In this document: positions 11,434 through 50,808 of the stretch, piece by piece
How the letters are laid out: every line of letters begins with the position of its first letter
Position numbering within the stretch: position 1 is the first letter of the stretch
Assembly (NCBI RefSeq): GCF_009931435.1
Contig: NZ_CP043414.1
DNA: 64,000 nucleotides
Strand: one strand, 5' to 3'
DNA from: Escherichia coli
GTDB taxonomy: Bacteria; Pseudomonadota; Gammaproteobacteria; Enterobacterales; Enterobacteriaceae
Position numbers and translations under genes: made by a program
Notes under the pieces: model-generated
Databases searched by the model: none
Seen by the model: the letters and a program-made list of their open reading frames with translations, nothing else
Told to the model about the DNA's origin: nothing

Positions 11434-12456
11434 TTATGTGGATGAAATGTGGATGCCTCCTTTTAACGGATTAAGTGAAATTGCATCCTGGAGGAAATCA
11501 GGAGCGAGGTGCGCATAGGTCATAGTTTGCTGGATCGTGGCGTGCCCCATAATTCGCTGGAGCGTAAGTATATTTCCTCCATTAATCATAAAGTGAGCAG
11601 CAAAGGTATGGCGTAGAACATGTACAGCCTGTCCTTTTGGTAGGTCTGGCTTAACACTGCGAAGCACCTTGCGATATTCCTCATAATTGACGTCAAACAA
11701 AAGGCCGGATTTCTTTGTTTTGATCTCACTAACAACTTCATCAGAGACAGGAATAATTCGAACTTTTCCGTTTTTAGTTTTGTTAAACGTCACGCGATTA
11801 TTGATGATGTGTTCCGCGCGCAGATTTTTCGCTTCTCCCCATCTCGCCCCAGTACTGAGACAAAGTAGCGTAATCCGCCGGGCATCACCGCTTACTGCAT
11901 CCAGTAATTTGGCGATTTCTTCCATGGTGAGATACGTCATTTCGGGTGATTTTCGTTTCAAAGAGGGGAGGGCGCGGAGCGGATTTTCTCCGTGAAATTC
12001 CCCGGCATTTGCCAGGAGTGTAAACATTCCTCCGAGATCCGACTCATCACGCCGAACAGTAGACTCTTTTACTCCCAAAGATAAACGGGAGCTTCGATAA
12101 GCGGCCATGAAACGAGCATTAATCTGGCTAACCCTTGGATCATTCATTTCTTTGATGATTTTTTTCAACCTGGTTAGAACGCCGTTAGCATATGGCTTAT
12201 TGCGTCCACCCAATTCCCACCATAACGGAAGCAGATCTGAGAGATGACGTTGCTCTGTTGGCTTTTCAAGCCATTCCTTATCGTGCATGTGGCTGAGAAC
12301 ATAACGCTCAAAGGCCACTGCATCTGCCTTTTTCTTAAAAATCCGCTGAATCCGACGTCCACTTCGGCCACGCGGTCTAACATCCACTTTATACCGTCCA
12401 CCATCGAGCGCTTTAATTGCCATTGGCAAGCCCTCCGGTGAAACGAGGAAAGACAT
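11434..12456 (-). CDS. int: Tyrosine integrase, P2 Int-like (start possibly at 12423, MAIKALDGGRY)
   Basis: Similar to P2 Int as I recall it (LSTGARWGEA, HxLRHTFA, YAH motifs). Confidence 0.9.
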   Translation of the reverse strand: MSFLVSPEGLPMAIKALDGGRYKVDVRPRGRSGRRIQRIFKKKADAVAFERYVLSHMHDKEWLEKPTEQRHLSDLLPLWWELGGRNKPYANGVLTRLKKIIKEMNDPRVSQINARFMAAYRSSRLSLGVKESTVRRDESDLGGMFTLLANAGEFHGENPLRALPSLKRKSPEMTYLTMEEIAKLLDAVSGDARRITLLCLSTGARWGEAKNLRAEHIINNRVTFNKTKNGKVRIIPVSDEVVSEIKTKKSGLLFDVNYEEYRKVLRSVKPDLPKGQAVHVLRHTFAAHFMINGGNILTLQRIMGHATIQQTMTYAHLAPDFLQDAISLNPLKGGIHISST

Positions 12457-45281: not shown

Positions 45282-45880
45282 TCACCGGGCATACCCCCCC
45301 ATAAACGCCCATCACGCAACGCACGGCTCCGGTCGTGCGTTTTCATATCTGCCACCTGATTAATGCGTTCTGCGTGCCATTCTGGCGCTGTATGCGCACA
45401 CCGCGTAAACGGTGTGACGTAAAGCGTGAGGTGACGTAAACCGCGCTACCCCCTCCAACCCGCGGGTTTCGTGTCGAAACAGTTTTTCAGTTTTCTGCCG
45501 TGCAAAAATGACCGCCAGCCCGCGCAGCAACTGAGGGAAAAGCGAAGATCTGAAATTTCACGCTTTGAAATTTTTTGCAGTTTTCAAAGTGGTTTTTACG
45601 ATCGCACAAATGGCCGGAGCAATAAAACCGCATGATATTAAAAGAGTTTTCATACTTTACGCGAGACAAAAAAACGATCACGAAAGGATCGCATCAAACA
45701 GCCATCAAACAAAGAAGGCAGACACGGCGCGGCCTGCACAAAATTAAGCTCCAAAATAAAACTGAAAAAAAGGATCGCAACAAGAAGAAAAGCGCGTAAA
45801 ACGATCGCTGCTGATGTGGCGTTTCTTTATACAAGCTGCTATTTGCGATATGCTGAACACATCAACCTGTGGAGTGCATT

Positions 45881-46507
45881 ATGAAACGAAAATCAAAGTC
45901 TGCTGCCATTGCTGCTATTACTACAGCTCTGACAGCATCACTGGCTCCGGTGCCAGCTAAAAGCACGATACTACCAACAACAGTTATTGAATCCGCGACA
46001 CACGCCAGAGTGGTTTCAATGCTTACATTTGAGCATCATGATGGTCAGGTGTTTCTGCCTCTCGAAGAAGCTATTGAATATATCAACGGGCTGAATGACA
46101 ACATGCGCGCCGCGCTCAATGCAGTCATTGAAGAACGACAGAACAGAGGCAAGGGAGCACTGTTTACTGACAAAACCGCAAAAATCATAAAAATATGCGA
46201 AGAGTCAATTAAGCAGCACACCCGTGTTAAAGAGGCTGTCAAAATTGTAATGGATCCGGATAACCTGGCAAAAATGTATCCGGATAGCCTGGAGCAAAGA
46301 ATCGCCTATCGCAATAAACTGGTTCGTTTTGGTCGGGCAATTGCGCAGGGAGAGTTTATCGCTCGTGATGCCATCAACACCATCAAACGAAGCACCGCAC
46401 CAGACAAAACAACCAGCCTGGGCAATACGCTGTCTGACGGAAATGTGAAAGCAATGATTATTGCCGAGCATAAAAACATGGGACTCCCGGCACCGGAGTT
46501 TTCCTGA
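45881..46507 (+). CDS. Hypothetical protein (208 aa) with signal-peptide-like N-terminus, coupled to the YafO-like gene
   Basis: GGAG RBS before MKRKSK; N-region/hydrophobic stretch MKRKSKSAAIAAITTALTASLAPVPA; TGATG overlap with next gene. Confidence 0.6.
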   Translation: MKRKSKSAAIAAITTALTASLAPVPAKSTILPTTVIESATHARVVSMLTFEHHDGQVFLPLEEAIEYINGLNDNMRAALNAVIEERQNRGKGALFTDKTAKIIKICEESIKQHTRVKEAVKIVMDPDNLAKMYPDSLEQRIAYRNKLVRFGRAIAQGEFIARDAINTIKRSTAPDKTTSLGNTLSDGNVKAMIIAEHKNMGLPAPEFS

Positions 46508-46887
46508 TGGCAAGCAAAGTAAGCATTCATAAAGATGTTGAATACCAGGACATTGCAAAAGTTTACGGAAAGGCTCTGGAAAACTGGTTAAATACCGGTG
46601 TTCTCCCTGACAGATTCGGCAATGAAGGGCAGTGGGAAGATAACGCAAGATTATGTGGTTCGTTTGTATATAAATTACACATAAGACTACCGTCAGAACC
46701 ACCATGGAAGAAAAGCAAAGCCCAAATAGACAGAACTTCAAATATCTATCTGGTTTATACAAGGCACTGGATGGATTATGACAATATACAAATCATCAGC
46801 ATCATGGCCCCAGATGCTCACGAAAAAGCCAAAACTTCTTTCATGGCTGAACTGGAAAGACGGGCTGAAGAATTCCAGAACTCATAA
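46507..46887 (+). CDS. YafO-family toxin-like protein (126 aa)
   Basis: Blocks GVLPDRFGNEG, HIRL, YLVYTR and C-terminal ISIMAPDAHEKAK...AEEF resemble E. coli YafO as I recall it. Confidence 0.55.
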   Translation: MASKVSIHKDVEYQDIAKVYGKALENWLNTGVLPDRFGNEGQWEDNARLCGSFVYKLHIRLPSEPPWKKSKAQIDRTSNIYLVYTRHWMDYDNIQIISIMAPDAHEKAKTSFMAELERRAEEFQNS

Positions 46888-46907
46888 ATTGCCTGATTTT
46901 CTCTCAG

Positions 46908-46942
46908 AAACCCGCAGCGTAAAAACTGTGGGTTTTCTTTTT
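46908..46942 (+). terminator. Rho-independent terminator after the YafO-like operon
   Basis: Hairpin aaacccgcag...ctgtgggttt followed by T-run. Confidence 0.65.
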
Positions 46943-47178
46943 GCTACCCTGATACGTGAGGGTAGCACTCAAAGTGAGGCAATATGTAGGCAACCTATTT
47001 AATACGTAAAAATTAATGCATTAAATGGATATTTACTAGCATGGGTACTGGCTTAAAATATCACAACCCTGTTTTATAACGTACTGAATTTATTAGGTGT
47101 GACGGTTTTCCAATGGGGCTTCCGACATTACGTTCAGCTGATGCTTTTCTTATGTAACGAGAAGACATATATTGGTAA

Positions 47179-47234: not shown

Positions 47235-47251
47235 ACGTCTGTTTGGTTATA

Positions 47252-47296
47252 AACTTCACACTAATAATTTCTAAATGAAATTATTAGTGTGAAGTT
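47252..47296. promoter_or_regulatory. 20-bp perfect inverted repeat (aacttcacactaataatttc / gaaattattagtgtgaagtt, 5-nt spacer): candidate operator or 5'-UTR hairpin
   Basis: Perfect palindrome ending 34 bp upstream of the ATPase ATG; RBS AAGGAA follows. Confidence 0.6.
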
Positions 47297-47329
47297 GATG
47301 TTTATTGTGATTATAACTAAGGAATTAAA

Positions 47330-48799
47330 ATGAAATTATCTCCAGCAGAATTGAAGTTAGAAAGGGGTAAGGTTCAAGATAATAAATTCAATCAATATGT
47401 TAAACGTATCACATTAAAAAATGTCAGAGGGTTTGATGAGGAAATTGTGGAGTTTAAAACACCAGTTACAGCTCTTATCGGGACTAATGGTGGAGGGAAG
47501 TCGACTATATTAGGTGCTGTAGCTCTCGCTTATAAAAATGTTAAGCCAAGCAAGTTTTTCCCTAAATCATTTTATGGGGATGATTCAATGAGTGATTGGG
47601 AAATTGGATTCGAATTGATTGACAAGCCTATTTCAAAAGATAAAAATATTAACAGGACTGCAAAATTTAAACAGATGAAATGGCGCAGAGATAATTTCCC
47701 AGAGCGAAATGTTGTATATGTAGAAATACAAAGAACTGTTCCTGCAGGCGAACTAACTAAGTTTAATAAATTTTTATCTGGCGATGCTAAACAATTTGAA
47801 GAAAAAAATCTCAACCCTGAGACAATAAAATATTGCTCTGCCGTTTTAGATAAAAAGATAGAAGATTACAGATGTATAATAAATAAGCACGATCCATCTT
47901 CAAGAATGTTTGTAGGTAAGGCAATTAATGGTTCTGGTTATTCTCAGTTCCATTTTGGTGCAGGTGAAGCATCAATAATAGATACTATTGATAGAATAGA
48001 GACTGCTGCTGATAATTCTCTTGTTTTAATTGAAGAAATTGAAAATGGACTGCATCCTGTTGCAGTGCGGTTGTTTGTTAACTATTTGACAAATGTAGCA
48101 AAGAGGAAAAAGCTGCAAATAATATTTACAACACATTCGCAGGATGCAGTAAACGAGCTAGAGCCAGAAGCTGTTTGGGCTTCTATTAACAAAAAAGTAT
48201 GGAATGGTAAACTAAGTATTGAAAGTTTACGCGCTATAACGGGACAGAAGATAAATTCGAAAGTTATATATGTTGAAGATTCTTTTGCAAAAGAGTGGGT
48301 TGAAAATGCGATGGATCGATATATTCCAGAACTAGCCTCAACAATAAAAGTCTACACGGCAGGTGGTTACCCCAGCGTGGTTAAAGTAAGTCAATATCAT
48401 AATGAGAACCCTACTATAAATTATCCATCAATCGCATTAGTTGATGGGGATATTAAAGGTAGACCCGGAACTAAAGATCTGCCTGATAATGCAATGTTCA
48501 TCGGGGATGATTATCCTGACGCTACGGTTTTTCATTATATTGCAAATAACATAGAAGAAAATGCCTCAGTTTTGAGGCAAAGATGTTTGTTAACAAGATT
48601 TGACGCTGAAAAGATTAAATCGGAAGTTGAGAGTGTGATGCATTCTGCATGTGATCACCATGTTTATTTTACTAGATTAAGTGATAAATTAGATTTTGCC
48701 TCAGAACTATTCATTCGAGCTGGTATGATAGATTTATTTAATGAGAAAAATCCAGAATTTTGGTCCCCAATTATGGACTTCATTAAAAAAGGTCTATAG
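47330..48799 (+). CDS. OLD-family-like ABC ATPase fused to Toprim/DUF4435-like domain (489 aa); candidate antiphage defence protein
   Basis: Walker A GTNGGGKST, Walker B LVLIEEIE, H-loop TTHS; C-terminal YVEDS (Glu) and ALVDGD (DxD); AT-rich gene. Confidence 0.65.
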   Translation: MKLSPAELKLERGKVQDNKFNQYVKRITLKNVRGFDEEIVEFKTPVTALIGTNGGGKSTILGAVALAYKNVKPSKFFPKSFYGDDSMSDWEIGFELIDKPISKDKNINRTAKFKQMKWRRDNFPERNVVYVEIQRTVPAGELTKFNKFLSGDAKQFEEKNLNPETIKYCSAVLDKKIEDYRCIINKHDPSSRMFVGKAINGSGYSQFHFGAGEASIIDTIDRIETAADNSLVLIEEIENGLHPVAVRLFVNYLTNVAKRKKLQIIFTTHSQDAVNELEPEAVWASINKKVWNGKLSIESLRAITGQKINSKVIYVEDSFAKEWVENAMDRYIPELASTIKVYTAGGYPSVVKVSQYHNENPTINYPSIALVDGDIKGRPGTKDLPDNAMFIGDDYPDATVFHYIANNIEENASVLRQRCLLTRFDAEKIKSEVESVMHSACDHHVYFTRLSDKLDFASELFIRAGMIDLFNEKNPEFWSPIMDFIKKGL

Positions 48800-48959: not shown

Positions 48960-49346
48960 TTGTCGATCAGACATTCGCACTATTCAATATCTTTTAGGCT
49001 CCGCAATGAAAACGCCCCCGAAGGAACAATCCCCCGTCAATCGGTTGCCAAAGGCCATTTAGGTAAATCGCCTTCGAGGTCGTTCGATGGCTGCATGACG
49101 TTCCCGGTTATCCCGTCAAAGAAAATGCACTCGACCGGAAAACCAGAAGAACTAATGGCGGAGTTGGTCAGGACTGCGAATAGTGGCGGAACAGTCCTTG
49201 ATCCTTTTATGGGGCCAGGGACAACGGGTGTGGCTGCACTGAAAGCAGGGCGAAAATTTATTGGTATAGAGACCAGTGATCATTATTTTGAAGTAGCAGC
49301 ACAGCGACTTCGGGGGACTATTACCACAACCATTTCGACTACATAA
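48960..49346 (+). pseudogene. 3' fragment of a beta-class DNA methyltransferase gene (N6-adenine or N4-cytosine), N-terminally truncated
   Basis: HSTGKPEELMAEL and VLDPFMGPGTTGVAALKAGRKFIGIE (SAM-binding FxGxG) present; no catalytic DPPY region upstream. Confidence 0.6.
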
Positions 49347-50028: not shown

Positions 50029-50808
50029 CTAAATCGCTTCAGTTTCACAACTAACAGAATAAAAAAACGGCAGCTCAAGGCTGTAATGCCAGTCAGTTAA
50101 GCAACTGACTGGCTCTTTTTCGGGGCTGTGGGGTATTTCCAGGGCCTCTCCTTTACCACTCTCGGGAAGGCCCTTTCCCTTCTTGTCGGTAATTTCACTG
50201 GCTGTCCCATACTTGCAAGATCGCGCATCAGCTCCGGTATACGTCCCGGTGAAGCGCATGGCGTCCGTCATCGACGTCAGCAGATGGCTGGTCAGTTCCA
50301 TCTGGCAGACCATTTTGACCTGCGGGTAGAGCGCCGGGTTCCCGGCATGTGTCTGGCGGGGGAAGGCTGCATCGTTCTCTGGTGTATCCGGTGTGCGCCA
50401 GAACACACCATCGATGGCCAGCAGGGTCAGGCTGCACCAGTGCGGATGCAGCGTGGCGTTATGCCAGAGCTGCGCTGTTTTCGTGAACACGCGGCGGACA
50501 GCCTCACTTCCCAGGCGCTGGCGGGCCTGAATAACGGCACTGGGGGCAACGAAGGGGCGATTGCCCGGCAGCATGATGTCCAGGCGATTCACAATCTGGT
50601 GAAGAGGTTCTTTACGCTCAAGCGCCATGCCAACAATACACCAGACCATCATTTCGAGGGGAAGACGGCGCTTGCGTAGCGTTACAGTACCTGATTCGGC
50701 AAGGCAACGAGAGATGAGTTCGGGGTCGAGGTAATCCCCCAGAAAAGTCAGTGGGTTACGCAGAGAATCGTAACGGGATACCAAATCAAGGGCCTGTCCA
50801 ATGAGCAT
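50029..50808 (-). pseudogene. Truncated/frameshifted IS4 transposase (InsG N-terminal ~200 aa fused to out-of-frame tail)
   Basis: N-terminal sequence matches IS4 InsG as recalled, then diverges after HLLTSMTDAMRF. Confidence 0.75.

What the first reader, a model, noticed from the sequence alone, without database searches (positions are those of the whole stretch)
45881..46887. YafO-like toxin gene translationally coupled to an unrecognised 208-aa upstream partner
The 126-aa downstream product shares several blocks with YafO-family ribosome-dependent mRNA interferases. Canonical YafO pairs with the small (~97 aa) YafN antitoxin. Here the overlapping (TGATG) upstream gene encodes a 208-aa protein with no resemblance to YafN and an N-terminus that looks like a signal peptide. 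This is either a toxin-antitoxin pair with a new antitoxin type or a toxin domain recruited into a different two-gene module, sitting next to the ATPase cassette.
Basis: partly seen in the sequence, partly recalled or inferred. Interest (0 to 1): 0.65.

Follow-up and report, generated by a model that had tools for sequence, protein, structure and literature searches.

The report
YafO-type toxin with unusual partner
A small mobile two-gene cassette at the end of an E. coli prophage encodes a YafO-family toxin and, instead of the usual small YafN antitoxin, an uncharacterised 208-residue helical protein that is predicted to bind the toxin yet begins with what looks like a secretion signal. That combination has been catalogued before but never explained or tested.

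Summary
ORF-A (45881-46507, 208 aa) and ORF-T (46507-46887, 126 aa) overlap in TGATG.

- **T** is a full-length Pfam YafO_toxin match (E 1.4e-27). It is 31% identical to K-12 YafO and is not its orthologue.
- **A** matches no Pfam, NCBIfam, PHROG, PADLOC or PDB entry and does not resemble YafN. It belongs to a very small family of Enterobacterales and Vibrio (32 representatives among 1.84 billion proteins).
- **Pairing.** In every evaluable locus, A is immediately followed by a T-type gene, and every T relative checked has A upstream.
- **Mobility.** The 1.17-kb cassette carries its own terminator. It occurs without the neighbouring HEC-04 ATPase, at prophage ends, in the P2 hotspot, or as two-gene chromosomal islets.
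- **Predicted complex.** AlphaFold2 of an A-linker-T fusion gives pTM 0.83, against 0.70 for A alone. A residues 171-190 become ordered.
- **N-terminus.** It has all three features of a Sec signal peptide, and Phobius called one on a homologue (Rousset 2022, Table S5B, system 123). However, its ASLAPVPA segment is the most conserved part of the protein.

Best reading: a type II-like toxin-antitoxin module with a new antitoxin family. The role of the N-terminus is unresolved, and nothing has been tested experimentally. This is a new variant of a known kind, of moderate interest.

The parts
45781..45880 (+). Upstream control region of the cassette. The left boundary is where identity with other cassette copies begins. 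It holds a candidate sigma-70 promoter, TTTATA (45826-45831), 17-nt spacer, TATGCT (45849-45854), and a GGAG Shine-Dalgarno sequence at 45871-45874.
   Evidence: The copy next to serS in a P2-like prophage matches the query from position 82, i.e. window 45781. The promoter was read by eye: it matches 8 of 12 positions, below the scan's threshold, so it is an inference. No palindromic operator was found.
45881..46507 (+). Gene A: 208-aa helical partner, the putative antitoxin of a new family.
   Evidence: No hit in Pfam, NCBIfam, PHROG, PADLOC or PDB. The family has 32 representatives. It always lies upstream of a YafO-type gene. The AF2 model has pLDDT 82.8 and is helical. Fold searches return only generic helical hairpins or its own family.
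45881..45964 (+). Codons 1-28 of A: signal-peptide-like N-terminus (MKRKSK / SAAIAAITTALTASLA / PVPAKS), including the invariant ASLAPVPA segment.
   Evidence: Across the family the n-region carries a charge of +1 to +5 in 34 of 35 members, the 12-residue Kyte-Doolittle maximum is about 1.8-2.5 in most members, and an A-x-S/G site follows. Phobius predicted a signal peptide on a homologue. This is the most conserved segment of A, 0.87, with saturated synonymous sites. AF2 places residues 21-25 as a strand; the only other strand in A is 56-60.
46277..46504 (+). Codons ~133-208 of A: the conserved C-terminal part (FGRA helix, PxKT loop, AEHKxLGLxxPxF tail), which is the predicted toxin-binding region.
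   Evidence: Nearly invariant F150, G151, R152, A155, P174, I193, E196 and H197. pLDDT of residues 171-190 rises from 69/77 to 95/86 and a new strand appears at 177-178 when T is fused. The tail motif is shared with the unrelated CUS-3-type partner family.
46507..46887 (+). Gene T: 126-aa YafO-family putative toxin, translationally coupled to A through the TGATG overlap.
   Evidence: Pfam PF13957 E=1.4e-27. phrog_1651 E=2.6e-24. 31% identity to K-12 YafO. G38, S52, H58, R76, L82, V83, P102, H105, A120, E121 and F123 are invariant, including in K-12 YafO.
46907..46946 (+). Intrinsic-terminator-like hairpin with a T-run, 20 nt after the T stop codon. It marks the end of the cassette transcript. 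Identity with other cassette copies ends at about 46950.
   Evidence: Terminator scan: 11-pair stem followed by CTTTTTGCTA. The right boundary of the shared cassette comes from query position 1251.

Best explanation
The region 45781-46950 is a self-contained, horizontally mobile two-gene toxin-antitoxin-like cassette. T is a YafO-family protein. By homology it is most likely a ribosome-associated mRNA endonuclease that arrests translation when free. A is a new family of partner protein that has replaced the Phd/YefM-type YafN. A is made first, and T is translated by coupling at the TGATG overlap. A then neutralises T by direct binding, mainly through its conserved C-terminal third (FGRA helix, PxKT loop, AEHKxLGLxxPxF tail). 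The cassette rides on prophage ends and in the P2 hotspot beside other defence cargo. Its likely benefit is prophage or island retention, abortive infection, or both.

Shown here: family membership of T, the novelty of A, obligate pairing, mobility of the cassette, and a confident predicted complex. Inferred: toxicity of T, neutralisation by A, and any anti-phage role. Unresolved: whether the signal-peptide-like N-terminus of A is a working export signal or a structural or tethering element.
For: - T is a full-length YafO_toxin match. It keeps the residues that are invariant with K-12 YafO, including H58, R76 and H105.
- Architecture: the partner gene lies upstream, with overlaps or gaps of -8 to +12 nt in 17 pairs. 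Where a gap exists there is usually a Shine-Dalgarno-like GGAG/GAGG motif before the T start.
- Pairing: all 9 intact loci found in a scan of one genome for each of 100,044 species have T directly after A. So do all divergent A members checked and 9 of 9 evaluable IMG/VR loci. All three T relatives checked, at 52-61% identity, have an A-family gene upstream.
- Correlated divergence: pairwise A and T distances correlate at r=0.83, Mantel p about 2e-4, and A diverges 1.5 times faster than T.
- Predicted complex: the A-(G4S)6-T fusion gives pTM 0.83 and pLDDT 84.3, against pTM 0.70 for A alone. A residues 171-190 become ordered and a new strand forms.
- Decay follows toxin-antitoxin logic. T carries a W88stop with A intact in two Photorhabdus species. 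T is deleted in a third. In Serratia symbiotica both genes have decayed and T has lost H58, H105 and G38. No locus has an intact T next to a broken A.
- The cassette moves as a unit and occurs without the ATPase. It has its own terminator. It also occurs as two-gene islets between housekeeping genes.
- It is a recurrent P2-hotspot cargo: system 123, 24 occurrences, Table S5B of PMC9122126.
Against: - There is no experimental evidence for toxicity, rescue or binding.
- A has no recognisable DNA-binding domain, and there is no palindromic operator upstream, so classical autoregulation is not supported.
- A carries a conserved Sec-type signal-peptide pattern. If A were exported it would be separated from a cytoplasmic toxin.
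- The complex rests on a linker-fusion AF2 run with only 16 paired rows. No PAE or coordinates were available, so the interface is inferred from pTM and pLDDT changes alone.
- Foldseek of the fused model found no RelE-like or other toxin fold in the PDB, and no YafO-family structure exists, so the fold and active site of T are unverified.
- Neither protein hits PADLOC.
Confidence: 0.6

Rival explanations
1. Export-labile antitoxin. A is a genuine Sec substrate. Newly made pre-A binds T in the cytoplasm, while free or extracted A is continually removed by SecA-driven export and signal-peptidase processing rather than by Lon or Clp proteolysis. When synthesis stops, for example on phage shut-off, or when export changes, the A pool drains and T is released. 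This is a special case of the toxin-antitoxin model with a new lability mechanism.
For: - The tripartite signal-peptide pattern persists through members that are only 20-25% identical. The n- and h-regions vary in sequence but keep their charge and hydrophobicity, and an A-x-S/G site with prolines at -4 and -6 follows.
- Phobius called a signal peptide on a homologue.
- The first residues after the putative site are mostly uncharged or acidic.
- A still appears to bind T through its C-terminus. That can be reconciled with a real export signal if binding competes with export.
Against: - The c-region ASLAPVPA is the most conserved segment of the protein (0.87) under protein-level selection, which is atypical for signal peptides.
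- AF2 models residues 3-18 as a confident helix and residues 21-25 as a strand within the fold, with block-mean pLDDT of 93 (residues 11-20) and 76 (21-30).
- One member, P0093, has a Glu in the h-region and low hydrophobicity.
- The CUS-3-type partner family has the same C-terminal motif but no signal-like N-terminus.
- No literature search here found a precedent.
Confidence: 0.15
2. Two-compartment or non-toxin-antitoxin module. A works in the periplasm or at the membrane, for example as an envelope sensor or a superinfection-exclusion factor. T is a co-expressed cytoplasmic RNase that A does not neutralise. T would be non-toxic at native levels, or controlled in some other way.
For: - Signal-peptide features of A.
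- A has no known antitoxin or DNA-binding domain.
- The location among prophage accessory and defence genes.
Against: - The predicted A:T complex is confident and orders the C-terminal region of A.
- The C-terminal region of A is the part that tracks T and is shared with another family of YafO partners.
- T-first decay suggests that T is harmful without A.
- Translational coupling and the very tight pairing are typical of partners that bind each other.
Confidence: 0.1
3. The pair is an accessory part of a three-gene system with the downstream HEC-04 ATPase (47330-48799).
For: The genes are adjacent in the window and in closely related strains.
Against: - A terminator-like hairpin follows T, and a 440-nt gap with its own inverted repeat precedes the ATPase.
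- 16 of the 22 E. coli genomes in which one place covers at least 80% of the query match at 95-99% identity. All 9 of those that are listed match only query positions 82-1251, i.e. the cassette without the flanks, and the one examined lies next to serS with no ATPase.
- No other locus in other genera has the ATPase.
Confidence: 0.03
4. T has lost nuclease activity and the pair is a neutral, decaying remnant.
For: - Some copies are visibly decaying.
- The fold of T was not matched to any solved toxin.
Against: - T is under strong purifying selection. All 33 T-family sequences aligned are at least 50% identical to the window T, and 11 columns are invariant and shared with K-12 YafO.
- Intact pairs occur in many genera and on active mobile elements.
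Confidence: 0.08

Closest known systems
YafN-YafO of E. coli K-12 (dinB-yafN-yafO-yafP operon)
   Same: The toxin belongs to the same Pfam family (PF13957) and keeps the shared invariant residues H58, R76, H105 and others. The partner gene is upstream, and the two genes are nearly contiguous or overlapping. YafO is a ribosome-dependent mRNA interferase that cuts 11-13 nt downstream of the start codon (review PMC7781912).
   Different: Identity is only 31%, and the NCBIfam equivalog score is 42.7 bits against a cut-off of 153. The partner is a 208-aa helical protein with a signal-like N-terminus, not the 97-aa YafN, and the two show no similarity. The pair is a mobile cassette on prophages, not part of the SOS-regulated dinB operon.
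P2-hotspot arrangement 'system 123, YafO_toxin' in Rousset et al. 2022 (PMC9122126, Table S5B)
   Same: It is the same two families in the same order. Protein 1 is an A-family member, near-identical to P0095, and was flagged by Phobius as having a signal peptide. Protein 2 is a T-family member. The arrangement is carried by P2-like prophages of E. coli.
   Different: It is a divergent branch: P0095 is 24% identical to the window's A. It sits in the internal P2 hotspot rather than at the right prophage end. It is only listed in the table, and the paper's main text does not discuss it (0 mentions).
Phage CUS-3 (P22-like) ECRS218_0007/0008 pair and its Pectobacterium/Salmonella relatives
   Same: A roughly 199-aa uncharacterised protein overlaps a downstream YafO-like gene that is 32.5% identical to T. 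The partner ends in SHKRxGMExPxW, which resembles A's AEHKxLGLSAPEF.
   Different: Apart from the last 27 or so residues the partner is not detectably homologous to A (hhalign E 9e-4, probability 23%). It has no signal-peptide-like N-terminus.
Combinatorial partner swapping in type II toxin-antitoxin systems (Leplae 2011, PMC3141249; E. coli survey PMC10790755; NetFlax, PMC10440598)
   Same: YafO toxins were already reported to pair with Phd-type and with unclassified partners. In E. coli only 8% of 13 YafO_toxin partner clusters were known antitoxins.
   Different: Those surveys do not describe this partner family, its signal-like N-terminus or its distribution.
Toxin-antitoxin-chaperone (TAC) systems with SecB-like chaperones, and secretion monitors such as SecM, MifM and VemP (conceptual comparison only)
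   Same: They link the protein-export machinery to control of a toxin, or to control of a translationally coupled downstream gene. For TAC, the review PMC4257090 was retrieved. The secretion monitors are cited from general knowledge.
   Different: There is no sequence relationship. In TAC systems the antitoxin is not itself a secretory protein. No arrest motif was identified in A.

Membership tests
YafO toxin family (Pfam PF13957) | Significant, full-length match to the family profile | tested here: met
   E=1.4e-27 over model positions 2-101 of 101. All 34 aligned relatives match.
YafO toxin family (Pfam PF13957) | Orthology to E. coli K-12 YafO (NCBIfam equivalog NF007377, cut-off 153 bits) | tested here: not met
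   42.7 bits and 31% identity. This is a separate subfamily.
YafO toxin family (Pfam PF13957) | Conservation of the residues that are invariant across the family (candidate catalytic His/Arg) | tested here: met
   G38, S52, H58, R76, L82, V83, P102, H105, A120, E121 and F123 are invariant, including in K-12 YafO. A catalytic role is inferred, not shown.
YafO toxin family (Pfam PF13957) | Ribosome-dependent mRNA cleavage and growth arrest | not testable with these tools
   Needs expression and primer-extension or RNA-seq assays.
YafN-YafO type pair | Partner is a Phd/YefM-type antitoxin (YafN) | tested here: not met
   No alignment to YafN. No PhdYeFM_antitox or any other Pfam hit in 41 family members.
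Type II toxin-antitoxin system | Bicistronic operon with a closely spaced or overlapping antitoxin-toxin pair | tested here: met
   TGATG overlap. Spacing of -8 to +12 nt in 17 pairs. Terminator after T.
Type II toxin-antitoxin system | Conserved co-occurrence and co-divergence of the two genes | tested here: met
   All evaluable loci are paired. Distance correlation r=0.83, Mantel p about 2e-4.
Type II toxin-antitoxin system | Direct protein-protein complex of antitoxin and toxin | tested here: inconclusive
   The linker-fusion AF2 run gives pTM 0.83 against 0.70 for A alone, and A residues 171-190 become ordered. This is a prediction only, without PAE or coordinates.
Type II toxin-antitoxin system | Antitoxin carries a DNA-binding domain and autoregulates through an operator | tested here: not met
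   No HTH, RHH, AbrB or Phd domain. No inverted repeat upstream of A.
Type II toxin-antitoxin system | Toxicity of T alone, rescue by A, and a labile antitoxin | not testable with these tools
   Indirect support only: T is lost or inactivated first in decaying loci.
Sec-type (signal peptidase I) signal peptide on A | Basic n-region, hydrophobic h-region, and small residues at -3 and -1 | tested here: met
   A heuristic scan of 35 members found an n-region charge of +1 to +5 in 34, a 12-residue Kyte-Doolittle maximum of about 1.8-2.5 in all but two outliers (P0087 1.69, P0093 1.05), and an A-x-S/G site. Phobius was positive on a homologue (published table).
Sec-type (signal peptidase I) signal peptide on A | Sequence-tolerant, fast-evolving signal region | tested here: not met
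   The c-region is the most conserved segment of A (0.87, against 0.42-0.67 for the other segments). ASLAPVPA is invariant despite saturated synonymous sites.
Sec-type (signal peptidase I) signal peptide on A | Actual export and cleavage | not testable with these tools
   Needs PhoA or Bla fusions, fractionation, and N-terminal sequencing.
Known anti-phage defence systems (PADLOC-DB 2.0) | Profile match to a catalogued defence protein | tested here: not met
   T has no hit. A has only a chance-level ThsB hit, E 0.0075.
Known anti-phage defence systems (PADLOC-DB 2.0) | Location in defence hotspots of mobile elements | tested here: met
   The pair lies next to HEC-04 in the window, in a P2 hotspot position in L025, and in P2-hotspot Table S5B.

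The most novel reading that the evidence does not exclude
A is a genuine Sec-exported protein that doubles as the antitoxin. Its removal from the cytoplasm by the export machinery, not proteolysis, sets the level of free antitoxin. The module would therefore fire when synthesis or export is perturbed, for example by phage takeover. The invariant ASLAPVPA segment would tune recognition or processing. This would be the first toxin-antitoxin system whose antitoxin lability comes from secretion.
Probability: 0.13. Interest if true: 0.85.

Novelty: new variant of a known kind. Interest (0 to 1): 0.52.

Why it matters
- **Open questions about YafO.** YafO is one of the least understood ribosome-dependent toxins. 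The PDB holds no structure for the family, and published surveys class most of its partners as unknown.
- **A second partner family.** This work defines a conserved, non-Phd partner family for YafO toxins. It points to a short C-terminal motif (EHKxLGhxxPxF/W) as a candidate neutralising element shared by two unrelated partner families.
- **An annotation error.** Many family members are named 'SufA' in public databases, and that name is not supported by any profile match.
- **A testable paradox.** A putative antitoxin carries a conserved secretion-signal-like N-terminus whose core is more conserved than the toxin-binding region. If the signal works, it would link protein export to toxin control.
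- **A possible defence role.** The cassette recurs in prophage defence hotspots but is absent from current defence-system catalogues, so it is a reasonable candidate for phage-challenge screening.

Tried and rejected
- **Remote homologues of A: none beyond the family.** A profile search of 1.84 billion representatives found 32 hits.
- **Structural confirmation of a RelE-like fold for T: failed.** Foldseek of the fused model against the PDB was dominated by the helical part and gave nothing significant. PDB sequence and profile searches found no YafO-family structure.
- **Three-gene system with the HEC-04 ATPase: rejected** on distribution and the terminator.
- **Nucleotide-level constraint explaining the invariant ASLAPVPA (RNA structure or promoter): rejected.** All synonymous codons are used.
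- **GTG 45869 as the start codon: rejected** in favour of ATG 45881, on homologue N-termini and Shine-Dalgarno position.
- **Homology between A and the CUS-3-type partner.** Only the C-terminal 27 or so residues align, and weakly. This is treated as a shared motif, not as shown homology.
- **Sequenced phage genomes (INPHARED).** No A homologue, and only two distant T-like hits.
- **Literature.** Searches for a characterised signal-peptide antitoxin or for YafO-based defence found nothing relevant.
- **Viral scan.** It was repeated with A1.
Full report
**1. What is in the sequence**

The finding holds at the stated coordinates. ORF-A runs 45881-46507 on the + strand and encodes 208 aa. It starts at ATG, with a GGAG Shine-Dalgarno sequence at 45871-45874. 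ORF-T runs 46507-46887 and encodes 126 aa. The stop codon of A and the start codon of T share one base, giving TGATG at 46505-46509. A terminator-like hairpin with a T-run lies at 46907-46946, 20 nt after the T stop. By eye, a candidate sigma-70 promoter precedes A: TTTATA, a 17-nt spacer, then TATGCT, at 45826-45854. It is an inference, because it matches only 8 of 12 positions and falls below the threshold of the scan.

The window is E. coli chromosome. A P2/HP1-like prophage extends from an integrase at 11437-12456, through tail genes, to about 49350, and abuts raiA, bamD and rluD. The pair lies at the far right end of this prophage.

**2. Identity of the two proteins**

T is a bona fide YafO-family protein.
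- It matches Pfam PF13957 at E=1.4e-27 over the whole model and phrog_1651 at 2.6e-24.
- It is 31% identical to K-12 YafO over 104 residues.
- It is not the YafO orthologue, because the NCBIfam equivalog scores 42.7 bits against a cut-off of 153.
- In an alignment of 33 subfamily members plus K-12 YafO, eleven residues are invariant: G38, S52, H58, R76, L82, V83, P102, H105, A120, E121 and F123. H58, R76 and H105 are plausible catalytic residues, but that is an inference.
- The PDB holds no structure for any YafO-family protein.

A matches nothing known.
- There is no significant hit in Pfam, whether scanning the single sequence or all 41 family members.
- The same holds for NCBIfam, PHROGs, PADLOC and the PDB.
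- A does not align to YafN.
- A profile search of 1.84 billion representative proteins found only 32 relatives. Those with a named source are from Enterobacterales or Vibrio.
- Many relatives are named 'iron-sulfur cluster assembly scaffold protein SufA' in NCBI and UniProt. No profile match supports that name.

**3. The pair is an obligate, mobile two-gene module**

A scan of one genome for each of 100,044 species returned 13 loci.
- Nine have an intact A directly followed by a T-type gene.
- The other four are decaying copies.

The association also holds from the other direction and at greater divergence.
- Three T-subfamily members at 52-61% identity were looked up independently. All have a divergent 200-201-aa A-family gene upstream.
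- The most divergent A members (profile E of about 1e-8) still sit upstream of a YafO_toxin gene. One of these T genes had not been called by the original annotation.
- In IMG/VR, 9 of 9 evaluable loci have T. The other two contigs end at the stop codon of A.
- Spacing between the genes ranges from an 8-nt overlap to a 12-nt gap, usually with a Shine-Dalgarno-like motif where a gap exists.
- Pairwise divergence of A and T is correlated (r=0.83, Mantel p about 2e-4), and A diverges 1.5 times faster than T.

The cassette is independent of the neighbouring ATPase at 47330-48799, which matches PADLOC HEC-04 at E=6e-204.
- 30 of 5,426 complete E. coli genomes carry the cassette.
- In several of them only window 45781-46950 is shared. 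In the copy examined it sits after ogr, at the end of a P2-like prophage next to serS, with no ATPase.

Other contexts found were:
- a position equivalent to the P2 internal hotspot, between the replication and partition genes and the portal gene (L025);
- inside a phage beside HicAB (L024);
- the end of an HP1-like prophage next to ihfA and pheT (L026);
- bare two-gene islets between housekeeping genes.

**4. Does A bind T?**

AlphaFold2 of A alone, with 41 sequences, gives pLDDT 82.8 and pTM 0.70. The model has:
- a helix at 3-18;
- a short strand at 21-25, and the only other strand in A at 56-60;
- a disordered stretch at 30-52;
- helices at 61-89, 99-124, 126-132, 137-171 and 186-199.

I then fused A to T through a (G4S)6 linker. 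The alignment held 16 naturally paired rows plus unpaired rows for each half, and its block structure was checked.
- The fused model has pLDDT 84.3 and pTM 0.83 over 364 residues, even though about 55 residues are disordered.
- A residues 171-180 rise from pLDDT 69 to 95, and residues 181-190 rise from 77 to 86.
- A new strand appears at 177-178.
- The N-terminus of A is unchanged.

A pTM this high requires a confident arrangement of the two halves, so a direct complex through the C-terminal third of A is predicted. No PAE or coordinates were available, so I treat this as supportive rather than conclusive.

That C-terminal region holds most of the near-invariant positions of the wider family: F150, G151, R152, A155, P174, I193, E196 and H197.

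**5. Decay pattern**

- In Photorhabdus L009 and L012, T carries the same W88stop mutation while A is intact.
- In L015, T is deleted and A is truncated.
- In Serratia symbiotica L016, A is riddled with stops, and the T frame is open but has lost H58, H105 and G38.
- No locus has an intact T with a broken A.

This fits a harmful T that needs A. The sample is only about three independent events.

**6. The N-terminus of A**

Evidence for a Sec signal peptide:
- Thirty-four of the 35 full-length members have a net positive n-region whose sequence varies.
- Nearly all have an Ala/Ile/Leu-rich core with a 12-residue Kyte-Doolittle maximum of about 1.8-2.5.
- All have an A-x-S/G site with prolines at -4 and -6, and what follows is mostly uncharged or acidic.
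- Rousset et al. 2022 list this gene pair as P2-hotspot system 123 ('YafO_toxin', 24 occurrences). Their Phobius column marks 'protein 1', an A-family member, as having a signal peptide (PMC9122126 Table S5B).

Evidence that it is more than a generic signal peptide:
- Residues 21-28 (LAPVPAxS) are the most conserved segment of the whole protein. The commonest residue has a mean frequency of 0.87 there, against 0.67 for the C-terminal helix and 0.42-0.61 elsewhere.
- ASLAPVPA is invariant in nine loci although every four-fold site uses three or four codons, so the constraint acts on the protein.
- AF2 builds the segment into the fold at fair confidence.
- One member, P0093, has a Glu in the hydrophobic core.

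A second partner family lacks the signal altogether.
- The ~199-aa gene overlapping a YafO-like gene in the immI region of phage CUS-3, together with its Pectobacterium and Salmonella relatives, has no signal-like N-terminus.
- It ends in SHKRxGMExPxW, which resembles A's AEHKxLGLSAPEF.
- Profile-profile comparison aligns only those last 27 or so residues (E 9e-4, probability 23%).
- This suggests that the C-terminal tail is the toxin-directed element, and that the signal-like N-terminus is a lineage-specific addition.

**7. Most likely mechanism**

I commit to a type II-like toxin-antitoxin cassette with confidence of about 0.6. A is translated first, and T follows by coupling. The C-terminal third of A clamps T and keeps the presumed ribosome-associated RNase inactive. 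Free T would cleave mRNA and stop growth, which would stabilise the prophage or abort a phage infection.

- Shown: family assignments, pairing, mobility, and the predicted complex.
- Inferred: toxicity, neutralisation, and any defence role.
- Unresolved: how A is regulated and removed. It has no DNA-binding domain, and there is no operator-like repeat upstream.

If the signal is functional, the simplest way to reconcile it with toxin binding is that export competes with T binding and supplies the antitoxin's lability. I give that about 0.13-0.15. Section 8 gives the precedent check.

**8. Comparison with what is known**

The closest systems are:
- YafN-YafO, with the same toxin family but a different partner class and a different genomic setting;
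- the untested Rousset system 123, with the same two families in a divergent branch;
- the CUS-3-type pair, which shares only the tail motif.

Earlier surveys noted that YafO toxins pair with Phd-type and with unclassified partners (PMC3141249). In E. coli, only 8% of 13 YafO_toxin partner clusters were known antitoxins (PMC10790755). No paper retrieved here characterises this partner family, and none describes a secretion-signal-bearing antitoxin.

**9. Verdict**

It is a new variant of a known kind: a YafO toxin with a new antitoxin family. The new elements are the strictness of the pairing, the predicted binding region, the shared C-terminal motif, and the anomalous conservation of the signal-like segment. 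The pair has been catalogued but not studied. Interest is moderate (0.52), and would be higher if the export link proves real.

Noticed in passing
window 45881-46507 and homologues (P0003-P0036; UniProt A0A376P806 and others): Many A-family proteins are named 'iron-sulfur cluster assembly scaffold protein SufA' in RefSeq and UniProt. No SufA or Fe-S profile matches any of 41 members, so this looks like a propagated misannotation.
   Followed up: partly
window 47330-48799 (+): A 489-aa ABC/OLD-type ATPase matches the PADLOC candidate defence gene HEC-04 at E=6e-204. RefSeq annotates it as 'ATP-dependent nuclease'. It is a separate cassette from the A-T pair.
   Followed up: partly
window 47249-47299: A 23-nt, 96% complementary inverted repeat with a 5-nt loop lies just upstream of the HEC-04 ATPase gene and overlaps promoter-like hexamers. 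It could be an operator or a terminator.
   Followed up: no
window 48960-49346 (+): A C-terminal fragment of an adenine-specific DNA methyltransferase, annotated as a pseudogene in near-identical strains, lies at the prophage-chromosome junction before raiA.
   Followed up: no
window 50029-50808 (-): A truncated IS4-family transposase ORF sits between raiA and bamD. The 99.9%-identical strain in L001 has only about 270 nt there, so this is a strain-specific insertion remnant.
   Followed up: partly
L035 1917-2920 (phage CUS-3, CP000711.1 7577-8580): The immI region of a P22-like phage carries an overlapping pair: a 199-aa gene and a 139-aa YafO-like gene. The partner is unrelated to A except for a similar C-terminal motif (SHKRxGMExPxW), and it has no signal-like N-terminus. 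Its relatives occur in Pectobacterium and Salmonella.
   Followed up: partly
L033 3001-3480 and L034 148-627 (P0101): A 159-aa protein has the C-terminal half of A but a different N-terminal half, with no T gene downstream. It sits beside a P2-type capsid gene or a P4-like Toprim primase, so it is possibly a solo antitoxin-like gene on a satellite.
   Followed up: partly
L009 and L012 6621-7001; L015; L016 6001-7005: Decaying copies of the cassette. Two Photorhabdus species share a W88stop in T with A intact. In another, T is deleted. In Serratia symbiotica both genes have decayed, and T has lost H58, H105 and G38 while keeping an open frame.
   Followed up: yes
L017-L019 2190-2767; L024 2362-3027: Other toxin-antitoxin pairs sit within about 1 kb of the A-T cassette in some loci: Phd/YefM with Fic, and HicA with HicB. 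The cassette therefore lands in accessory regions rich in toxin-antitoxin genes.
   Followed up: no
L020 1994-2419 (P0073, Yersinia enterocolitica): This T homologue is 141 aa long because of a tandem duplication of the peptide MEQWNNGT (EQWNNGTMEQWNNGTMEQWKNG) in the loop after the first helix.
   Followed up: no
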